DNA from: Promethearchaeota archaeon
Lineage (GTDB): Archaea > Asgardarchaeota > Lokiarchaeia > Sigyniarchaeales > SOKP01
Assembly: GCA_048939015.1 (NCBI GenBank)
Contig: JBHLPW010000105.1
Location: 1-10,142 of the forward strand
Direction of reading: 5' to 3'
DNA length: 10,142 nucleotides
Part shown: in pieces, positions 1 to 10,142 of the stretch
Numbering within the stretch: position 1 is the stretch's first letter
How the letters are laid out: every line of letters begins with the position of its first letter
Program-made: the position numbers and the translations under genes
The notes under the pieces: generated by a model
Told to the model about the DNA's origin: nothing
The model's database searches: none
Seen by the model: the letters and a program-made list of their open reading frames with translations, nothing else

Positions 1-1511
1 TGTCCAATTCCAGCAATATGAATTCCAAAATAAGGGATTATTAATTTATAAGCATTAATATGCTCACAATTTATCTCAACTTCCTTAACTCTTGTAAAAG
101 TAAATTTACTAAAAATTTCCCATAATTTCATTGTAGTTAATGTTTTATAATCATTTTGAATTAGGTATTTTAAAGTTTTAAGTAATCTATATTCAGAAAT
201 GTTCTTTTTAAATTGCTCTTGAGAACATTTAGCAGCTATGAATGGTATATTTTTTCGTTCTGCTAACATCCTTAGAGAGATTTTATACATTCTTTTCATT
301 TCTTCATTAATCTTTTTCATCCATGGATTGAGATTAATTACTATATCTTTTCCTCTAGCAAATTTCCCATATTCAGGTAAATCAGGAATAAATTCTCGTA
401 ATTTTTTTAAATTCGCTTTACTATTTATAGCAAGTACGTAGGAATCATGCCAAGTTGGATGCTTTTTATTATCAAACTCTCTTGTTTTAAATTCTGCTAC
501 AACACCAAATCTTTTTAATAAAAAATTCAATCCAAATATCAACTTTTTCGAAGAAGAATTTAGTCTGTATAATACATCACGAGAGGGGGATGCTTGAAAC
601 TCTCGATTACGAATATAATCTCCTATTGAACCATCCCCTTTAGTGAATCCTACTAGAAATCCCTTGACACATTCTTTTGGAGCGTTATACATGAAAGGAG
701 GAATTTCTTTAAGGGGTGCATATTTTGGCTTTAAACCTATTCCAATAGTAAAGATTAACTTTGCTAACTGGGAGTAAGCATCTACAGTATAAACTGTATC
801 ATATCTCTTTTTATCATGTTTTCCAATAGATGGTGAAAATCCAAAATTATTTTCAACTAGAACTGATACTTTTTCTATTTCAGCTTTTTGATTACCACAA
901 GATACCACTACTTGGTTCATGGAACCTTCTGAACAATAGTGCCCTAAAATATAACCTAGATCAAAATCCTTTTTAATAAATCTAAATGCTTTAGTACGAG
1001 CCCTTTTTACGTATTCAATTCCGTCTTCTTCAAAAACTTCTCCGCAATTAGAAAAATCTAAAGGAGAATGATTTTCAATAATATTAATTTGTCGAGGCAT
1101 CAAGATTGGCATACCTACTTCAATTTTTTTTACAGGAATTTTGATAATATTTAAATTTTTATCAACACTAAGGAGTGAATGATGTTCTGATAAGGATAAA
1201 GTTCCATGCTTAAAAGCTATTTTATAAGAAATACTATTTGGATATTCTATAATTTGATCTATTTTTATATTTCTTAAATTACTATTTTTATCTAATCCAA
1301 AAATATATGAATTATTACTTATTTGACGATTATCTAGTTCTGCTAACTCATAAGTTTTTAAATCACTGTTATATATTAAAATAAGCTCATTTTCTATTGT
1401 TTTGATATTAGGCTTTTCTTTGCCAATAACATTACAAAAGTTCTTAGAAGTATTTTTCTTATAGTTCCAATATGGTTTATTACTCTTTTTACAAAAATCT
1501 TCATTATCCAT
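1..1511 (-). CDS. Intein-derived Hint + LAGLIDADG (DOD) homing endonuclease-like protein, apparently free-standing; 3' end runs off the left window edge
   Basis: Hand translation shows an uninterrupted minus-strand frame from ATG 1511 (alternative TTG 1556; in-frame TAA at 1559-1557) to base 3, 503 codons. Motifs in order: degenerate block A region KTIENELILIY, block B GTLSLSEHHSLL...IEVGMPILMPR, LAGLIDADG motif 1 LGYILGHYCSEGS (959-921), block D APLKEIPPFMYNAPKE, motif 2 FLVGFTKGDGS (659-627), block H-like SSSKKLIFGLNFLLKRFGV, and C-terminal Hint strands FTRVKEVEI...AYKLIIPYFGIHIAGIG at the edge. Confidence 0.9.
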   Translation of the reverse strand, partial: MDNEDFCKKSNKPYWNYKKNTSKNFCNVIGKEKPNIKTIENELILIYNSDLKTYELAELDNRQISNNSYIFGLDKNSNLRNIKIDQIIEYPNSISYKIAFKHGTLSLSEHHSLLSVDKNLNIIKIPVKKIEVGMPILMPRQINIIENHSPLDFSNCGEVFEEDGIEYVKRARTKAFRFIKKDFDLGYILGHYCSEGSMNQVVVSCGNQKAEIEKVSVLVENNFGFSPSIGKHDKKRYDTVYTVDAYSQLAKLIFTIGIGLKPKYAPLKEIPPFMYNAPKECVKGFLVGFTKGDGSIGDYIRNREFQASPSRDVLYRLNSSSKKLIFGLNFLLKRFGVVAEFKTREFDNKKHPTWHDSYVLAINSKANLKKLREFIPDLPEYGKFARGKDIVINLNPWMKKINEEMKRMYKISLRMLAERKNIPFIAAKCSQEQFKKNISEYRLLKTLKYLIQNDYKTLTTMKLWEIFSKFTFTRVKEVEINCEHINAYKLIIPYFGIHIAGIG

Positions 1512-1613
1512 TATTTCATCATTATTTCTTTTATCGCTGATATTTAATTTCCACAATTATTTAAAAAAAAATCTTGATATATTTCAATTTTAAAATTTTA
1601 TCTTTTGTTATAA

Positions 1614-2048
1614 AGTCCTAAAAAAGCTGTTGTTCAATCAAGTAGAAGTTCTGCTTATTATACTAATTCTGGTCATTTACGATATGATGCTGAGATTCCA
1701 TTATCAGTATGAATCAAAAAACAAGGTGATTTTCATCCTATCGTAAATGGAAGTGTAATAACTCACATTTGGATGGGAGAGCAAAAACCAGATATTTATG
1801 GCTTATGGGAACTTACAAAAAACATCTGTCTTAATACAAACACCGCATATTTCGCGTATTCACCAGACTTTATTTATTGTCCTCATTGTAGAAAAATGTT
1901 TCGCTGAGGAACTTTTGTATGTCCTCAGTGTTAATCAAGAGATGTAAACGTGTATTCAAGAGTTACAGGATATTACAGTGAAGTAAATAGATACAATCCC
2001 GGAAAAAGGGCTGAATGGAAAACTCGTAAACGAGAAACCATTTTTTAG
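1614..2048 (+). pseudogene. nrdD: 3'-terminal fragment of class III (anaerobic) ribonucleoside-triphosphate reductase, copy 1
   Basis: Translates as SPKKAVVQSSRSSAYYTNSGHLRYDAEIPLSV*IKKQGDFHPIVNGSVITHIWMGE...CPHCRKMFR*GTFVCPQC*SRDVNVYSRVTGYYSEVNRYNPGKRAEWKTRKRETIF*. It has the NrdD YYTNS motif, CxxC/CxxC zinc site and glycyl-radical motif RVTGY. It lacks a 5' start and has three in-frame stops (TGA 1710, TGA 1905, TAA 1932). Confidence 0.92.
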
Positions 2049-2126
2049 GAATTTTTTTAACTAGTAAATTCAAAAGAGTATTTTAAATTTCATTAGAAAG
2101 TAATGTGAATTTTTTAAACATTAATG

Positions 2127-3056
2127 TTACTTATAGGCTTTAATCATCTCAATTGCCAATTTCAAGTAGCGACTACTTATTTTGGTTGGTATTTTTTGAA
2201 TATATTTCCCAGGACTAATATAACCAGGTATTGTTTTTGGAGCACGTTTAGCTGGTGAAAGAGTTTTCTTTTTCCCCCGATATGATAATTTTATAGCATG
2301 AGTTGGACAAATTCGAATACAAGTAGTACAATACATACATCGATTAAAATTAATAAGATTAGATGAATTGGAGATCTCAATTGCTGCCATTGGACAGATT
2401 CGTTCACATAAACCGCATTTATTACAAGAATGTGTATCAAATTTGATTAATCCTTTGGTAGAAGCTTTGGTAGAAGCTAATCCTTTAATAATATATCTAT
2501 ATGCATATCTAGTAAGGAATTTAAAACGAAATCTACTTAAACGTAAATTAACAAATCTATCATCTTCAGTCCAAAGTCTTTTTGCAATGAGTAAGCCAAA
2601 AGAATAACATCTATCAATGATTTCAGGAGCCCACCCTATGGGATAATATTTGTTACTACAAAAGGGTTCAGCAGTAGGAGTAGGAACTTCTAAAACACCT
2701 AAAGGTTCATAGTTCTTTTTTCTCAGTAAATCCATCGCAACTCCAGCTGAATCACATGGTATGCCAGCACTCGTGTCTATTATAAAAACAGGTGTGGTGT
2801 GGTGTGCAGATGGTAATTGGTTTAACCAAATTAGAATAATACGTGGAATCATGAATTCATATACCGGAAAGGCTAATCCAATGGCAGGATACATCTTATT
2901 TTCATCAGGAAATGGAAATTTTTTAACATTTTTAACTTTTATAAGCTTGACTTGAATATTTTTATCTTGAAATCCACGTTGTACCAATTCAGAACAATAT
3001 TTGGTATTTCCAGAGCCAGAAAAATAATATAATGGGATTCTTCCTTGATTTGACAT
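2127..3056 (-). CDS. Flavodoxin-ferredoxin fusion (EFR1-like) with two 4Fe-4S motifs
   Basis: N-terminal flavodoxin loop YYFSGSGNT and GLAFPVY; C-terminal CNKCGLCERICP and CMYCTTCIRICP. Confidence 0.88.
   Translation of the reverse strand: MSNQGRIPLYYFSGSGNTKYCSELVQRGFQDKNIQVKLIKVKNVKKFPFPDENKMYPAIGLAFPVYEFMIPRIILIWLNQLPSAHHTTPVFIIDTSAGIPCDSAGVAMDLLRKKNYEPLGVLEVPTPTAEPFCSNKYYPIGWAPEIIDRCYSFGLLIAKRLWTEDDRFVNLRLSRFRFKFLTRYAYRYIIKGLASTKASTKGLIKFDTHSCNKCGLCERICPMAAIEISNSSNLINFNRCMYCTTCIRICPTHAIKLSYRGKKKTLSPAKRAPKTIPGYISPGKYIQKIPTKISSRYLKLAIEMIKAYK
2453..2478. repeat. Perfect 12-bp tandem duplication within the flavodoxin-ferredoxin linker
   Basis: CTTTGGTAGAAG x2 + CT; gives ASTKASTK in the protein. 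Confidence 0.85.
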
Positions 3057-3110
3057 TTTACTCGTCTAAATATAAATTTTTAAGTTTATTAATTTAAGAA
3101 AATATTTAAG

Positions 3111-3130
3111 GATTTCATTTTTTTGAAATC
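3111..3130. promoter_or_regulatory. Candidate operator (inverted repeat) in a divergent promoter region
   Basis: GATTTCA-N6-TGAAATC perfect 7-bp arms, in the 130-bp gap between the flavodoxin-ferredoxin gene and the wHTH regulator. Confidence 0.55.
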
Positions 3131-3186
3131 AAGAATATTAAATCTTTAAATTATTGGCAATATTAATAAATATTAATTGATGCATT

Positions 3187-3690
3187 ATGAAAGATGATTT
3201 TCAACAAAAATTTTTAAAGATTATAGGATCTTCCTATCAAGATTATGGATTTCCTCCTATTTGCGGTTGGATTGAAGCTCTTTTGGGCATTAAAAAAAAA
3301 GGATTGACACAAGTTGAAATCTCTTATTTATTGTCTACAATAATGGATGATAAGAATATAGGAACTTCAGTTTCATCGGTAAACAGAGCCTTAAAGATCT
3401 TAGTTCCTTATGGTTCAGTAATCAGAAAAGGTACAGCTAAAGAAGGGTATCAATATGAGTTAAACACAAATCCAGAGTTTTTCGACATGTTTATACAAAA
3501 CTTTATTAATGTTAACAAGATAACGTTGCGATCATTAGAGAAATTAAAACAAAATTGTTTAAAAGCAGAAGACACCAATTTAATTGAAGCTATTGAAAAT
3601 GAAATTGTTTACTTGAAATACATGGATGATTACCTGATAGAAAGTAAGAAGATTTTAGACTCTTTTAAAAAAAAATATTTTAAAGGCTGA
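3187..3690 (+). CDS. GbsR/MarR-like winged-helix transcriptional regulator
   Basis: YGFPPICGWIEALL...GLTQVEIS...TSVSSVNRALKILVPYGSVIRKG fits the GbsR (COG1510-like) N-terminal wHTH pattern, followed by a helical C-terminal region; divergent from the flavodoxin-ferredoxin gene. Confidence 0.75.
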   Translation: MKDDFQQKFLKIIGSSYQDYGFPPICGWIEALLGIKKKGLTQVEISYLLSTIMDDKNIGTSVSSVNRALKILVPYGSVIRKGTAKEGYQYELNTNPEFFDMFIQNFINVNKITLRSLEKLKQNCLKAEDTNLIEAIENEIVYLKYMDDYLIESKKILDSFKKKYFKG

Positions 3691-3768
3691 CAATCTATTT
3701 TATACTTCACATATATTCTCAAGGATAGGAGTCTGAACTATTTAAATAATAAAAATATCAATATATGA

Positions 3769-4227
3769 TTTCTTTCTCAATTAATACAACAAACAGGAAA
3801 AAAATTTAATGAACTTGAACCAGAAGGATGGTATAGTACTAAAGTAATTGACCGTGTTTTAAATTTATACGCTGAAGCTTCTCCAATAGGATTAACCGCA
3901 ATTGTTACAATGGGTAGAAATGTTTATCCTCTCATTAATAGAACAGTAGGAATACCCCCTGAGAAGATAAAGACTATATTAGATGCAATAATGTTTGAAA
4001 CTGAAAATTTTCTTATAGACCATCAGAGTGATGAAGTTTCTCAAGTCGTCCCTAGAAAAATAATAGAAAAAAGTGATCGTCGCATTGTTATAGAAGCACC
4101 TGCACCAGGATATAACCCTCTATTGTATAAAGGTGTATATTTAGGAATCTTAAATATGTTAGGCAAAAATACTGGAAAGGTCGAAATGATTGATAAAAAT
4201 AAAGCAATATTTGAAATTACTTGGTAA
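3769..4227 (+). pseudogene. 5'-truncated or start-less gene for a small V4R/H-NOX-like ligand-binding protein
   Basis: The frame of ORF 3910..4227 stays open and protein-like upstream to a TGA at 3766-3768 (FLSQLIQQTGKKFNELEPEGWYSTKVIDRVLNLYAEASPIGLTAIVTMGR...), with no in-frame ATG/GTG/TTG before 3910. The EPEGWY motif, the YxGxxxG helix and the terminal FEITW are reminiscent of V4R/HNOB-like proteins. Family call is from pattern memory. Confidence 0.5.
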
Positions 4228-4300
4228 ATAGTATAAAAAGTAGAAATACCAATCAACTTTATTTATTATATACCTAAAATTCAATCATTACTATGCAAAT

Positions 4301-4462
4301 GGTAGAAAAATGTTCAGAGGAACTCAATTTAGTTGTCCAAGATGTAGTTCTGGAAATGTAAAAGTCTATTCAAGAGTTGCTGAATATTATAGTGAAGTGA
4401 ATAGATATAATCTTGGAAAAAAGGCTGAATGGGAAACTCGTAAAAAATATAATTATTTATAA
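4301..4462 (+). pseudogene. nrdD: 3'-terminal fragment of nrdD, copy 2 (radical glycine lost)
   Basis: GRKMFRGTQFSCPRCSSGNVKVYSRVAEYYSEVNRYNLGKKAEWETRKKYNYL*; colinear with 1887-2030; RVTG is changed to RVAE. An ATG at 4310 would give a 50-aa ORF. Confidence 0.85.
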
Positions 4463-4583: not shown

Positions 4584-4901
4584 ATGATTAATGAAAACTT
4601 TCTAAAAGAAGCTCAAGATATAGTAGATAAGTGGATCCGAGATCATGGAGGGTATTGGCCTCCATTATCGATGACTTGTGCTATTATGGAAGAATTAGGA
4701 GAAATAGCTAGAGAAATCAATGCTATTGAAGGATATAAACCCAAAAAATTAAGAATTTTAGATTCTAATCTAGGTGAAGAATTAGCGGATCTACTATTTT
4801 CAGTCATTTGTATAGGAAACTATTTTGAAATTGATTTAGGAAAAGAATTTAATAATATAATAAAAAAATATTCAAGAAGAGACTCAAATCGTTTTAAATA
4901 A
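4584..4901 (+). CDS. MazG-like nucleotide pyrophosphohydrolase (YpjD-like)
   Basis: GGYWPPLSM...MEELGEIAREIN...LGEELADLLF (ExxE and EExxD metal-binding helices). ATG 4584 (MINENFLKEAQ) is preferred over GTG 4518. Confidence 0.9.
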   Translation: MINENFLKEAQDIVDKWIRDHGGYWPPLSMTCAIMEELGEIAREINAIEGYKPKKLRILDSNLGEELADLLFSVICIGNYFEIDLGKEFNNIIKKYSRRDSNRFK

Positions 4902-5032: not shown

Positions 5033-6211
5033 ATGTTAAAAGAAGGATTAGAAAAGCAAGAAATAATAAAAATTCTTAATGATAAATTAAAAACAGATTA
5101 TTCATACAAATCAGGTTCTATATTGGGTTCTATGTGTACTGAACCTTTAGCTCTTGCTGTTGAAATCTATATGAATTATGTTGCTAAAAATTTAGGAGAT
5201 CCTGGCTTATTTTCAGGAACAGCTGAATTAGAAGCAGAATTAGTTTCTGAAATTGGTGAACTTTTTGGAGGGAAAGAGATAATAGGGACTTTCACTACTG
5301 GTGGTTCAGAATCAAACTTAATAGCTATGAGGATTGCGAAAAAATTAAGACCTGATATTTCTTTTCCAGAAGTAGTTTTACCTTGTTCAGCACATATATC
5401 TTTTGATAAAGCAGCTGATTTACTTGGAATTAAACTTAGAAAAGCAAGATTGAAAGATAATTTTGAATTAGATCTTGACCATTTTCATTCTTTAATAAAT
5501 AGTAATACTTGTGGTGTTGTGGGAATTGCAGGAACTACTTCGCTAGGTTTGATTGATCCAATAAAAGATATTGGGAAAATGGTGGAGGGAAAAGATATTT
5601 TTTTTCATATCGATGCCGCTTTTGGAGGATTTATTTTACCTTTTCTCAAAGAAATGAACTATATTTTACCCTCATGGGACTTTTCTGTAAAGTCAGTTGA
5701 TTCAATTACCGCAGATCCTCATAAGATGGGATTAGGAATCATTCCTTCTGGTGGTTTTTTCTTAAGAGATTCTTCAATTTTGCAAAAAACAGGATTTGAG
5801 ATTCCATATTTAGCAGGAGGGACTTTTAAACACTTTCATATAGTAGGAACTAGATCAGGGGGAACTGTCATAGCATTTTGGGTAATAATGAAAGCTTTGG
5901 GAATTAATGGATTTAAAGATGTCATAAAAAGCTGTATGACAAACACACAATATTTAATTAAGCGAGTAAATGAAATTAAAGGTATTAAATTAGCTACTAA
6001 ACCGATGATAAATGTTGTTGGAATTACAACTGAAAATAATGAAAGTATTTGTAAAATTGATGAGGAATTACGAAAGAGAAATTGGATGGTTGGAAAGTTT
6101 GAAGAATTCAATCTTATTAGAGTTGTGATTATGCCTCATGTGCAAAAAAATCATCTACATAATTTTGCAGTTGATTTAGAGAAAATATTAAAAAAACTAA
6201 AAATTTCTTAG
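5033..6211 (+). CDS. mfnA: Archaeal L-tyrosine/L-aspartate decarboxylase (group II PLP-dependent)
   Basis: ILGSMCTEP, NLGDPGLFSGT, TTGGSESN, HIDAAFGG and the PLP-lysine motif SITADPHKMG; 392 aa. Confidence 0.9.
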   Translation: MLKEGLEKQEIIKILNDKLKTDYSYKSGSILGSMCTEPLALAVEIYMNYVAKNLGDPGLFSGTAELEAELVSEIGELFGGKEIIGTFTTGGSESNLIAMRIAKKLRPDISFPEVVLPCSAHISFDKAADLLGIKLRKARLKDNFELDLDHFHSLINSNTCGVVGIAGTTSLGLIDPIKDIGKMVEGKDIFFHIDAAFGGFILPFLKEMNYILPSWDFSVKSVDSITADPHKMGLGIIPSGGFFLRDSSILQKTGFEIPYLAGGTFKHFHIVGTRSGGTVIAFWVIMKALGINGFKDVIKSCMTNTQYLIKRVNEIKGIKLATKPMINVVGITTENNESICKIDEELRKRNWMVGKFEEFNLIRVVIMPHVQKNHLHNFAVDLEKILKKLKIS

Positions 6212-7218: not shown

Positions 7219-8835
7219 TTATAATGGTGATCCACATTTATTACAAAATTGATAATCACTCGAAAGAATTGCTCCACACTTTTTACATGTAACAATTTCT
7301 TTTTCTGAAGAGATCGATGTTTCTGGCTGATTTGACTTGCTTTCTATGTCTGAAACGTTTGGAATAATTCTTAATTTGCTAGGTTCTTGAGTTTCCACTC
7401 CTTTTTGAGCTGAAAAAGGAGTAAAATCTGCAATAAGACTTTTCTCAGTATCATCAGTTTTTTGACTTAGAGTTTGAAAAAGAGTAGGAGATCTTGATAT
7501 GTCTTTTGCTGGTGCTGTTGGTACTGAAGCTACTGGTTTAGCTTCTGTTTTCTCTTTCTTTACTTTTTTTTGTTTTTCTTTTTTTTCTTTCTTTGCTTTT
7601 TTCATTTCTTCTAATAATTTTTGTTGTCTCTCCTTTTCCTCCTGAAGTTTTTTCTCTTTCTCTACTTTCTTTTTTTTCTTTTCTGCTTTTTTAATATCTT
7701 TTTTAGAGTAAACAGGTTCAGGTAAGTAGTCCATTAATGAATCTGATCTGGGTTCTTGCGAATCTGTAGGTGGTAAAAAAGGAGCACTAGTTGAGGGTAT
7801 AGTATCATGAGACGTTGATTTTGCTGGAGATTGAAATCCTTCTGGGGCAGGGGCAGGAATAGGTACATTTGGTGTAAAAGGTGCTGTTTTTGGTTTATAA
7901 CTTTCACCCTCCTTTGTAAAAATGGTTGGTTCTGAACGAATTTGTGGTCGATCTTCTGGAGTTACATTTGTTAATATTTCTTCTGGTGTTTTAAAATCAA
8001 ATTCAATAGGTTTTTCACTTTTTTGTTCAATTTGTGATTCTGGCAAAGGAATTTCTGGTTCAAATTCCTGTTCTTGTATGTGAGTTGGCTCTGGAACGGG
8101 AGGAGCTTCAAATTCAAATTCTGGCTCTGGTTCAAATGCTTGACTTGGTTCAAATGTTTTGTCAGAAAGAGGTTCTGGGACGGGAGGTGCCGCAAACTCA
8201 TATTCTGGTTCTAATTGACTAGATGGAGTAGAATACATTCCTATTGTTGATGGAATTTGCCCAGGACTATATACAATTCCTTTTGAAATTAACTGATCTG
8301 GAACGCCTGATCCAATCATTAAACATGCAAGGATGTAAAAACAATCACCTACTCCTTCACCAGTTTTTGCTGAAGTCTCCATATAGTATAAATTGAAGTT
8401 ATTTGTAAATTCATTAATTTCTTCTAATGAAACTTCTCTTAAGTCGTGAAGATCACTTTTATTACCAACTAGAAGTAAGGGGATCTCTGTTTTAACATTT
8501 GCTCTCACTTCTTCTATCCATTGAGGGAGGTGTTCAAAACTAGCACTATTTGTAAGATCAAATATTAGTAAAGCTCCTAAAGATCCTCTATAGTACATTG
8601 GTCTAATTGAGCTAAATCGCTCCTGTCCTCCAGTATCCCATATTTGAAGCTTGGCTCTTAATGGTCCTTCAATAGAATCGATATTAATCGTCTTTACGTG
8701 GAAATCTACTCCAATTGTCATTTTATAATCTTCCGTGAAGAACCCTTTACTAAATCTGAGAGTTAAAGCAGTTTTTCCGACTCCACCATCTCCTACTACA
8801 ATCGATTTAAAGAGATAATCATATTCTTCAGCCAT
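7219..8835 (-). CDS. Rab-like (Ras superfamily) small GTPase with a long Pro/Glu-rich disordered tail, Lys/Glu helix and C-terminal zinc ribbon
   Basis: G1 GDGGVGKT, G2/RabF1 TIGVDF, RabF2/G3 KLQIWDTGGQERF, RabF4 YYRG, RabF5-like LIFDLT, G4 NKSD, G5 ETSAK; ends CKKC-x10-CNKCGSPL. Confidence 0.93.
   Translation of the reverse strand: MAEEYDYLFKSIVVGDGGVGKTALTLRFSKGFFTEDYKMTIGVDFHVKTINIDSIEGPLRAKLQIWDTGGQERFSSIRPMYYRGSLGALLIFDLTNSASFEHLPQWIEEVRANVKTEIPLLLVGNKSDLHDLREVSLEEINEFTNNFNLYYMETSAKTGEGVGDCFYILACLMIGSGVPDQLISKGIVYSPGQIPSTIGMYSTPSSQLEPEYEFAAPPVPEPLSDKTFEPSQAFEPEPEFEFEAPPVPEPTHIQEQEFEPEIPLPESQIEQKSEKPIEFDFKTPEEILTNVTPEDRPQIRSEPTIFTKEGESYKPKTAPFTPNVPIPAPAPEGFQSPAKSTSHDTIPSTSAPFLPPTDSQEPRSDSLMDYLPEPVYSKKDIKKAEKKKKKVEKEKKLQEEKERQQKLLEEMKKAKKEKKEKQKKVKKEKTEAKPVASVPTAPAKDISRSPTLFQTLSQKTDDTEKSLIADFTPFSAQKGVETQEPSKLRIIPNVSDIESKSNQPETSISSEKEIVTCKKCGAILSSDYQFCNKCGSPL
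8086..8211 (-). repeat. Intragenic peptide repeat in the GTPase tail
   Basis: EPEYEFAAPPVPEP (8211-8170) and EPEFEFEAPPVPEP (8127-8086). Confidence 0.8.
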
Positions 8836-9256: not shown

Positions 9257-10142
9257 TTAATTTAAATTTTCAATTAACTCTAAAAATTGATTATAGTCAT
9301 AAAACTTTGGAGGATTATCGCTTAATAGATCACTTTCAGATAAGAGCGATTTGGAATATTTGAAATACTTTTCATTATTTTCAGTTAAAAAGAAATATCT
9401 TTTATATTTTTGACATACTTTTCCAACAGTACTAGAGCCAGCAAAAGGATCTAATATAATGTCTCCTATGTATGAATAAAATTTTATAACCCATTTTACC
9501 AATTCTTCTGGGAATACAGCGGGATGGATCTTGTCATTAGTAGGTGCTATTTTCCATAAATTAGTTTTTTCATAATCTTCTTTCACTTTACTTTTTTCTA
9601 TAACCTCATCAGAATAATGCTCCATATTCCAATCAAGTAATCTATGTGTCTTCTTTCTATAAACCATAACATATTCTACCACAGAATTAGCTTTATATCC
9701 TAATGGTTTTCTATGTTGAAAGAAACCACCATTTCTATTAGCTGCACTGGGATCTGGTTTTTTCCATATTATATCTTCAATGAATTCAAATCCAGCATTT
9801 ATTATTCTTGGATGAATATCAAAAGGAATAGCAAAACGATGACTCGAATATTTCCTGCTAAATCGTGGAATAATTATAGGTGATGTATTTAATACAAAAA
9901 ACCTTCCTTCATAAGTTATTCTATATATTTCTTTAATTACATCAGTTAAAAAATTAAGATATTCTTCATAATTTGAATAAATACTATAATCTCTTGCATT
10001 GTAATAAGGAGGAGATGTAAAGGTTAAATGAATACATTCTTTTGGTAATTGTTTTAGGATATCTCTTGTATCTCCAAAAACTGAAGTGTTTTTAATTATT
10101 GGTAAATATTTTTCAAATCTTTCTCTTTTTTCTTGTTTACTT
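9257..10142 (-). CDS. Beta-class N4-cytosine/N6-adenine DNA methyltransferase; 5' end beyond the right window edge
   Basis: The frame is open from the window edge to the stop at 9257 (the ORF track shows only the last 141 aa): GDTRDILKQLPKECIHLTFTSPPYYNARDY (motif IV), IIWKKP, HPAVFPEEL, ILDPFAGSST (motif I). Motif IV precedes motif I, which defines the beta order. Confidence 0.92.
   Translation of the reverse strand, partial: SKQEKRERFEKYLPIIKNTSVFGDTRDILKQLPKECIHLTFTSPPYYNARDYSIYSNYEEYLNFLTDVIKEIYRITYEGRFFVLNTSPIIIPRFSRKYSSHRFAIPFDIHPRIINAGFEFIEDIIWKKPDPSAANRNGGFFQHRKPLGYKANSVVEYVMVYRKKTHRLLDWNMEHYSDEVIEKSKVKEDYEKTNLWKIAPTNDKIHPAVFPEELVKWVIKFYSYIGDIILDPFAGSSTVGKVCQKYKRYFFLTENNEKYFKYSKSLLSESDLLSDNPPKFYDYNQFLELIENLN

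What the first reader, a model, noticed from the sequence alone, without database searches (positions are those of the whole stretch)
1..4462. Candidate archaeal WHO-like homing system that replaces the 3' end of nrdD
Seen: an intein-type LAGLIDADG gene with no host extein lies about 100 bp from a dead nrdD 3' fragment, and a second, different nrdD 3' fragment lies about 2.4 kb further on in the same orientation. Known: yeast WHO elements (relatives of HO) encode intein-derived LAGLIDADG nucleases that cut FBA1 and insert a new FBA1 3' end plus the nuclease gene, leaving arrays of displaced FBA1 3' fragments downstream. Ribonucleotide reductase genes are classic targets of inteins and homing endonucleases. 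Inference: an analogous element operates here on class III RNR. It would supply a resistant nrdD 3' end and push the older ends downstream, where they decay. I am not aware of such a system having been described in archaea, but could not check the literature.
Basis: partly seen in the sequence, partly recalled or inferred. Interest (0 to 1): 0.9.

Follow-up and report, generated by a model that had tools for sequence, protein, structure and literature searches.

The report
Ex-intein homing element replacing nrdD ends
In a Loki-type Asgard archaeon, a DNA-cutting gene that escaped from a self-splicing protein element (intein) of the ribonucleotide reductase gene nrdD now sits behind that gene, appears to cut it at the old intein site, swaps in a new gene end plus passenger genes, and strands the old ends downstream, a strategy published for yeasts and fungal mitochondria but, in my search, not for archaea.

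Summary
Observation confirmed; the WHO-like reading is supported by comparative genomics, but cleavage is untested. The window is a whole contig. The intact nrdD is on contig C105, 3.1 kb from its end, and nrdD directly precedes mazG in 23 of 34 genus loci, so the two contigs are probably one locus. 16 of 17 loci with this nuclease clade share a contig with nrdD or its 3' fragment, always antisense. Its sister group is an intein inserted in NrdD at EQPAE|S (codon 544/545). Displaced fragments start at codons ~535-559, the resident nrdD changes ancestry at ~525-555, and codons 543-550 are the gene's most diverse 24 nt. Fragment 2 is probably the native end (90% to the nearest relative). The nuclease keeps its catalytic acids (dN/dS 0.21-0.37) and has lost its splicing residues. 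New relative to WHO: the target is inherited from the parent intein, up to 11 kb of cargo is carried, and a sister family sits at leuS. It is not a WHO family member; the origin is independent. This scan already noted like elements at other Asgard genes (polB, uS19; unchecked notes); I found no paper on archaeal ones.

The parts
3..1511 (-). Free-standing Hint + two-motif LAGLIDADG endonuclease (P0001, 503 aa seen; 3' end off the contig). Splicing residues lost, catalytic E195/D293 kept
1512..1616 (.). Upstream region of the nuclease and right junction of the newer element layer. Shared (82% over 303 nt) with locus L071, which joins nrdD at the same codon (~559-560)
1617..2048 (+). Displaced nrdD 3' fragment 1 (codons 559-701). 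Stops at 1710, 1905 and 1932, no frameshift. Sister to the 3' end of G014 nrdD (bootstrap 98, 88.9% nt); predicted right homology arm
2127..3056 (-). Cargo of the older layer: EFR1-family flavodoxin/ferredoxin, 309 aa
3187..3690 (+). Cargo: winged-helix (weak FUR-like) regulator, 167 aa
3745..4227 (+). Cargo pseudogene, broken at its 5' end. A 177-aa intact copy, 91.7% identical over 530 nt, lies before a displaced nrdD fragment in G102, whose mfnA is only 77% identical
4289..4462 (+). Displaced nrdD 3' fragment 2, probably the native end. A decayed remnant of codons ~535-541 is joined by a microhomology deletion (GTAGAAA) to codons ~649-704. The glycyl-radical Gly676 is changed to Glu (4382-4384)
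4584..4901 (+). mazG: conserved downstream anchor, directly behind nrdD in empty alleles
5033..6211 (+). mfnA-type decarboxylase: second anchor, used as the vertical-descent reference

Best explanation
A homing element of the gene-end-replacement type acts on class III nrdD. Its nuclease is an NrdD intein (site EQPAE|S, codon 544/545) that lost splicing and exteins and now lies antisense downstream of nrdD [shown by sequence and tree]. It still cuts susceptible nrdD alleles at or next to that site [inferred]. When a carrier allele and a susceptible allele share a cell, the break is repaired from the carrier. The left end pairs with the carrier's nrdD 5' part; the right end pairs with the carrier's displaced 3' fragment, or with mazG where there is none [inferred]. 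The recipient gains a re-spelled, resistant 3' end, the cargo and the nuclease, and its own 3' end is pushed downstream, where it decays [products shown]. This genome records at least two rounds. The older layer (ferredoxin, regulator, pseudogene; no nuclease left) displaced the native end, fragment 2. The newer layer (HD-like gene ... nuclease) displaced fragment 1. Repeated invasion and loss has reshuffled nrdD 3' ends across the genus and diversified the target codons [pattern shown, cause inferred].
For: Linkage: 16 of 17 loci, always antisense; the 17th has only nrdG on its contig. Closed single-contig arrays: nrdD-nuclease-gene-fragment-mazG (L063); nrdD-11 kb-fragment-nuclease-nrdG-mazG (G086); nrdD-cargo-fragment-cargo-fragment-cargo-mazG (G102). 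Origin: the closest inteins (44-47% identical) lie in NrdD at PAE|S and are sister to the free nucleases, 97/94. Fragment starts that are not eroded map to codons ~535-560. Resident nrdD vs its nearest relative G020: 94.8% (codons 20-300), 89.3% (301-540), 75.5% (546-700), while other lineages rise from ~80% to ~90% after codon ~555. In 27 taxa, forcing the mfnA or 5' tree costs 380-392 logL on codons 546-700 against 54-66 on equally long codons 386-540; Robinson-Foulds distance 38-40 vs 22-26. Fragment 2's best match is G020 (90% over 141 nt), which is also best for 5' nrdD and mfnA. Codons 543-550 are the most diverse 24-nt window (0.435 vs median 0.19); all 4 Ser-rich columns there toggle between TCN and AGY, against 5 of 48 elsewhere. 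Nuclease dN/dS is 0.21-0.37 and SEG/GDG are kept in all 16 loci checked. Cargo is shared at 92% between genomes that are 77% identical at mfnA.
Against: No cleavage or homing was observed. The C105-C23 join is inferred by synteny; the gap is unseen. Only 5 of 135 family genomes carry the nrdD-type nuclease, yet 3' discordance is genus-wide and G102 has two fragments and no nuclease, so frequent loss or action in trans must be assumed. Several nuclease loci lack a fragment (L013, L059, L076, L113). At the protein level 543-550 is raised (48 parsimony changes vs median 14) but is not the top window (Zn ribbon, 77), and distant NrdDs also vary after PAE. Nuclease vs 3'-end co-divergence is weak (rho 0.25 vs -0.07 for the 5' part; pairs not independent).
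Confidence: 0.82

Rival explanations
1. The nrdD 3' end is an attachment hotspot for integrase- or Tn7-type islands that restore the gene end; the ex-intein is a passenger.
For: Tn7-like elements next to nrdD are reported in archaea, including a Promethearchaeota genome (10.1101/2025.07.27.667033). Many inserts between nrdD and mazG lack the nuclease, and G102 has fragments without one.
Against: No phage integrase on C23 or C105, and none among the annotated genes of closed loci. Tn7 elements usually insert outside the gene and would not replace 150 codons. A passenger would not be tied to nrdD in 16 of 17 loci, nor descend from an intein whose site coincides with the breakpoint.
Confidence: 0.06
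2. The nuclease is host-domesticated (HO-like) or defensive, for example cutting viral nrdD or blocking intein invasion; the fragments are relics of past recombination.
For: Purifying selection. One parent intein lies in an nrdD on a 101-kb contig of many small genes, which looks virus-like. Several homologues have acquired N-terminal zinc-ribbon or helical domains.
Against: Patchy (5 of 135 family genomes), with a decayed remnant in G145. It stays next to its target and travels with cargo. A domesticated gene would not need displaced host ends beginning at its own ancestral site.
Confidence: 0.07
3. Fragments arose by local duplication or ordinary recombination and may act as spare-part glycyl-radical domains; the nuclease is a dying relic of a lost intein.
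For: In L058 the fragment is sister to the resident end. Fragment 2 keeps a 50-aa ORF.
Against: Here neither fragment is closest to the resident gene (83% and 76-79%), and each matches a different lineage. The radical Gly is lost in fragment 2, and fragment 1 has three stops. The nuclease has dN/dS of about 0.3 with catalytic acids intact.
Confidence: 0.03
4. Assembly or binning artefact: C23 and C105 come from different strains, or the fragments are misassembled.
For: Bin contamination is 6.5%; the contigs do not overlap.
Against: C105 5' nrdD and C23 mfnA have the same nearest relatives. The same architecture occurs on single contigs from independent samples. In the likely source run the nuclease-to-fragment-1 junction lies inside one contig (window 4-1679).
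Confidence: 0.02

Closest known systems
WHO elements of Torulaspora/Lachancea at FBA1 (PMC7282813; 10.64898/2026.08.13.744650)
   Same: Extein-less, intein-derived LAGLIDADG gene downstream of an essential host gene; duplicated 3' fragments starting near the cut; discordant 5'/3' gene trees; hypervariable target codons; layered arrays.
   Different: Archaeal; independent origin from an NrdD intein, not VDE. The target is the parent intein's own site, whereas WHO changed target. No C-terminal zinc finger. At most one nrdD-type nuclease per array was seen, but up to 11 kb of unrelated cargo. No meiosis to supply heterozygotes.
Mobile-ORF gene hybrids of fungal mitochondria (Allomyces atp6; Glomus atp6, atp9, cox2, nad3; PMC3630166)
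   Same: An endonuclease ORF brings a foreign C-terminal part of the host gene and strands the native one, which stays closest to the relative's gene.
   Different: Those are intron-type LAGLIDADG or GIY-YIG ORFs, often co-transcribed or in frame. Here the nuclease keeps a Hint fold, is antisense, chromosomal and carries cargo.
Endonuclease-bearing archaeal inteins (TliVMA 7qss, 2cw7, PI-PfuI 1dq3) and the NrdD PAE|S inteins P0034-P0036
   Same: Same Hint + LAGLIDADG architecture; 44-47% identity to the NrdD inteins; same inferred homing site.
   Different: No exteins, no N-terminal Ser/Cys, no His-Asn plus +1 Ser. Resistance must come from allele sequence, not from interruption of the site.
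Tn7-like elements using nrdD as att site in archaea (10.1101/2025.07.27.667033)
   Same: Cargo inserted at the nrdD 3' end, including one Promethearchaeota case.
   Different: No transposase or TniQ seen here; the gene end itself is replaced.

Membership tests
WHO elements | Stand-alone, extein-less LAGLIDADG gene of intein origin | tested here: met
   this copy's last few codons are off the contig, homologues stop at the intein end
WHO elements | Lies downstream of an intact host gene | tested here: met
   shown in relatives on single contigs; inferred by synteny for G000
WHO elements | Extra 3' fragments of the host gene that begin near the cut site | tested here: met
   starts at codons ~535-560 around the intein site 544/545; some further eroded
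WHO elements | 5' and 3' halves of the host gene have different phylogenies | tested here: met
WHO elements | Diversifying selection at the recognition site | tested here: inconclusive
   top nucleotide diversity and Ser-codon toggling; no codon-model test run; not the top window at protein level
WHO elements | Allele-specific cleavage; linked allele resistant | not testable with these tools
   needs an assay
WHO elements | Descent from the VDE/HO lineage, C-terminal zinc finger, FBA1 target | tested here: not met
   sister to NrdD inteins; archaeal inteins outrank PI-SceI in the fold search; homologues end at the intein terminus
WHO elements | Clusters of several nuclease genes | tested here: not met
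   at most one nrdD-type nuclease per array in all loci read; G000's gap is unseen
Inteins | In-frame insertion between N- and C-exteins | tested here: not met
   own start codon, antisense to nrdD; homologues have no extein
Inteins | Block A Ser/Cys1, terminal His-Asn, +1 Ser/Cys/Thr | tested here: not met
   TIENELILI vs SLKSDELVLL; homologues end QIFVN*, QIFIN* or HIFTF* vs YAHN|S
Integrase/Tn7 islands | Integrase or TnsAB-TnsC-TniQ in the insert | tested here: not met
   none on C23/C105 (PF00589) or in annotated loci; not every cargo ORF was scanned, and G000's gap is unseen

The most novel reading that the evidence does not exclude
An active, intein-born class of archaeal homing elements caught in the intein-to-free-standing transition. 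The nuclease keeps the parent intein's site, uses gene-end replacement as an integrase-free vehicle for multi-kb cargo between Loki lineages, drives an arms race at nrdD codons 543-550, and has sister families retargeted to other essential genes (leuS near GGIEHA).
Probability: 0.6. Interest if true: 0.88.

Novelty: new variant of a known kind. Interest (0 to 1): 0.77.

Why it matters
It would extend the 'third class' of homing elements from yeasts to the archaeal relatives of eukaryotes, by independent origin. It gives the missing intermediate in the proposed intein-to-WHO-to-HO path: parent intein and free-standing offspring at the same site of the same gene, so the cut site is predicted to within a few bases and can be assayed. 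It offers an integrase-free route for moving cargo (HD-like, SduA, restriction-like helicase, two-component genes). It implies that Loki archaea bring foreign alleles into one cell often enough for homing. It also warns that nrdD and leuS 3' parts are chimeric markers in this group.

Tried and rejected
The search for related loci with the single protein in genome contigs and with the intein in viral contigs found nothing (low sensitivity). No overlap or gap-filling contig between C105 and C23 was found. Laid contigs of the likely source run also stop at the window's left end, so the join could not be closed. No RNA holder is listed, so nothing can be said on expression. Bacterial promoter/terminator scans were at shuffle level and are not suited to archaea. 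No terminal inverted repeats or target-site-like direct repeats were found beyond the nrdD fragments. The truncated NrdD paralogue used as a control shows no peak at the equivalent site (0.27-0.35 vs median 0.33) but lacks the motif, so it is a weak control. Gln/His at codon 545 occurs in 4 of 12 nuclease-linked alleles vs 1 of 35 others, but two are close kin; suggestive only. Fragment 2's place in the ML tree is unresolved (long branch, support 36), so its assignment rests on identity rank. Paper searches for WHO + archaea, Asgard + LAGLIDADG + intein, Loki + intein + RNR and free-standing archaeal endonucleases showed no report of such an element; the library lacks most subscription papers. 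The spare-part radical domain idea was rejected (Gly676Glu; stops).
Full report
Setting. The window is the whole contig G000:C23. The host is inferred to be a Loki-type Asgard archaeon: close homologues come from Loki's Castle sediment and from Promethearchaeota records, and the window has a Rab-like GTPase.

Observation. The minus-strand ORF 3-1511 has Hint and LAGLIDADG domains, and its model matches endonuclease-bearing inteins. It runs off the contig a few codons before the stop seen in homologues. Two plus-strand nrdD 3' fragments lie at 1617-2048 (codons 559-701, three stops) and ~4302-4462 (codons ~649-704, radical Gly676 changed to Glu), 2414 bp apart. Between them are an EFR1 ferredoxin, a winged-helix gene and a pseudogene; mazG and mfnA follow.

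Where the intact gene is. The one full-length nrdD of this type in G000 is on C105, pointing to the contig end 3.1 kb away, with a 539-aa HD-like gene between. In 23 of 34 genus loci nrdD lies within 300 bp of mazG; 11 have inserts of 0.8-11 kb. C105's 5' nrdD and C23's mfnA have the same nearest relative, G020. I infer one locus: nrdD, HD-like gene, gap, nuclease (antisense), fragment 1, cargo, fragment 2, mazG. The join is not shown.

The nuclease family. 33 homologues of 295-885 aa show no NRDD domain. Of 17 distinct loci of the closest clade, 16 share a contig with nrdD or its 3' fragment, always antisense; the last has nrdG only. Closed examples are L063 (nrdD, nuclease, one gene, fragment, mazG) and G086 (nrdD, 11 kb cargo, fragment, nuclease, nrdG, mazG). 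G102 has two fragments, three cargo blocks and no nuclease. Five of 135 family genomes carry this type, one as a remnant. Both LAGLIDADG acids are kept and dN/dS is 0.21-0.37, while the block A nucleophile, the terminal His and the +1 residue are gone.

Origin and target. The longer-protein search returned three NrdD proteins with an intein 44-47% identical to the nuclease, inserted at EQPAE|S, between codons 544 and 545 of the C105 gene. These inteins are sister to the nrdD-linked free nucleases (97/94). That inteins' endonucleases cut at their insertion site is established knowledge, so the site is predicted independently of the fragments. Three other lines point to the same place. (i) Fragment starts: codon 559-560 in the window and L071, which share the junction DNA; ~550 in L053; ~549 in G086; and a decayed ~535-541 in G102. 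The window's fragment 2 keeps that same remnant and lost codons ~541-649 by a GTAGAAA microhomology deletion. (ii) The resident nrdD switches from about 90-95% to 75% identity with G020, and from ~80% to ~90% with another lineage, across codons ~525-555. (iii) Codons 543-550 are the most diverse 24 nt of the gene, with Ser codons toggling between TCN and AGY and variants such as PAES, PSEQ, PSEH and PVES within one family. This last signal is weaker at protein level, and distant NrdDs vary there too.

History. Across 27 taxa the nrdD 3' part conflicts with both the 5' part and the downstream mfnA, although it lies between them: logL cost 380-392 against 54-66 for a same-length control just upstream. 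Fragment 2 matches G020's intact end best (90% over 141 nt), as expected of the displaced native end. Fragment 1 groups with G014's end (98). The older cargo's last gene and junction are 92% identical to G102's, whose mfnA is 77% identical, so cassettes move between lineages.

Mechanism. Shown: architecture, origin, conserved catalytic residues, chimeric nrdD, stranded ends, mobile cargo. Inferred: cleavage near codon 544/545, resistance of the linked allele through re-spelled codons, and repair by gene conversion using 5' nrdD and the stranded fragment (or mazG) as arms, as modelled for WHO (PMC7282813). An inherited right junction, as in the window and L071, is what that model predicts. Unknown: how two alleles meet (DNA uptake, cell contact or virus). 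One parent intein sits on a virus-like contig and another on a cellular-looking one.

Wider family. A sister clade sits antisense behind leuS in L069, L073, L049, L110 and L112. In L069/L070 a displaced leuS fragment starts at codon ~538, at the GGIEHA motif. So the strategy has at least two targets within this protein family.

Comparison. It works like yeast WHO elements and fungal mitochondrial gene hybrids but is not a WHO member: different intein parent, no C-terminal zinc finger, no multi-nuclease clusters. It is not an intein. No integrase or Tn7 gene was seen, though Tn7 elements can use nrdD in archaea. I found no paper describing an archaeal element of this kind. Earlier unchecked notes of this scan report the same lifestyle at polB, uS19 and other Asgard genes, and first-stage notes on homologues of this nuclease read them as domesticated; none of these counts as support here.

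Verdict. Real; a new variant of a known kind. Confidence in the homing, gene-end-replacement reading is 0.82; interest 0.77.

Noticed in passing
L108 (G083:C306:~3570) and L109 (G084:C185:~15920): The only leuS found in G084 (99% complete) and G083 has a 29-nt frame-breaking insert exactly at GGIE|HA, the sister family's target. The 5' part is 81% and the 3' part 64% identical to the reference, and a nuclease relative lies upstream, co-oriented. The insert folds with the flanking exon into a hairpin with a 4-bp central helix, loosely like a bulge-helix-bulge, but no splice restoring the motif was evident. Possible mini-intron, recoding site or 5'-end replacement.
   Followed up: partly
L069:5218-7482, L073, L049, L110, L112: Sister nuclease family (505-1353 aa, long N-terminal extensions) antisense behind leuS, with displaced leuS 3' fragments. 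G004 has two full leuS genes (74% and 68% to the query), one beside the nuclease.
   Followed up: partly
L107:9929-11851 (G095:C75): A third nuclease clade (P0026/P0027) lies between an alpha/beta hydrolase gene and nadC; target not identified.
   Followed up: no
L132:8001-11531: NrdD with the intact PAE|S intein lies on a 101-kb contig packed with small unannotated genes and two dCMP deaminases, probably a virus or large mobile element.
   Followed up: no
L013:11744-14521, L062:5885-8665, L063:4365-5006, L076: Genes co-oriented directly upstream of the nuclease travel with it: a 926-aa membrane AAA ATPase (91% identical in L013/L062) or a 213-aa unknown protein (L063/L076). Possible helpers.
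   Followed up: no
L042, L043, L044 (nrdD codon 171) and P0034: Three genus genomes carry an ordinary intein at nrdD codon ~171; P0034 carries three inteins.
   Followed up: no
G000:C65:19930-20568 and L144-L166: Most genus genomes have a ~605-aa NrdD paralogue lacking the PAES motif and the C-terminal radical domain; G000 has a separate 669-aa NRDD-like frame on C65.
   Followed up: no
L033, L039, L046; L019, L022, L031; L024, L029, L172; L032, L044: Nuclease-free cargo blocks (two-component system, aspartyl protease, others) recur at 70-97% identity between nrdD and mazG in different lineages.
   Followed up: partly
window 7219-8835 (-) and 9257-10141 (-): Rab-like GTPase with a long Pro/Glu-rich linker and C-terminal zinc ribbon, conserved in this neighbourhood; an N6/N4 DNA methylase at the contig end.
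   Followed up: no
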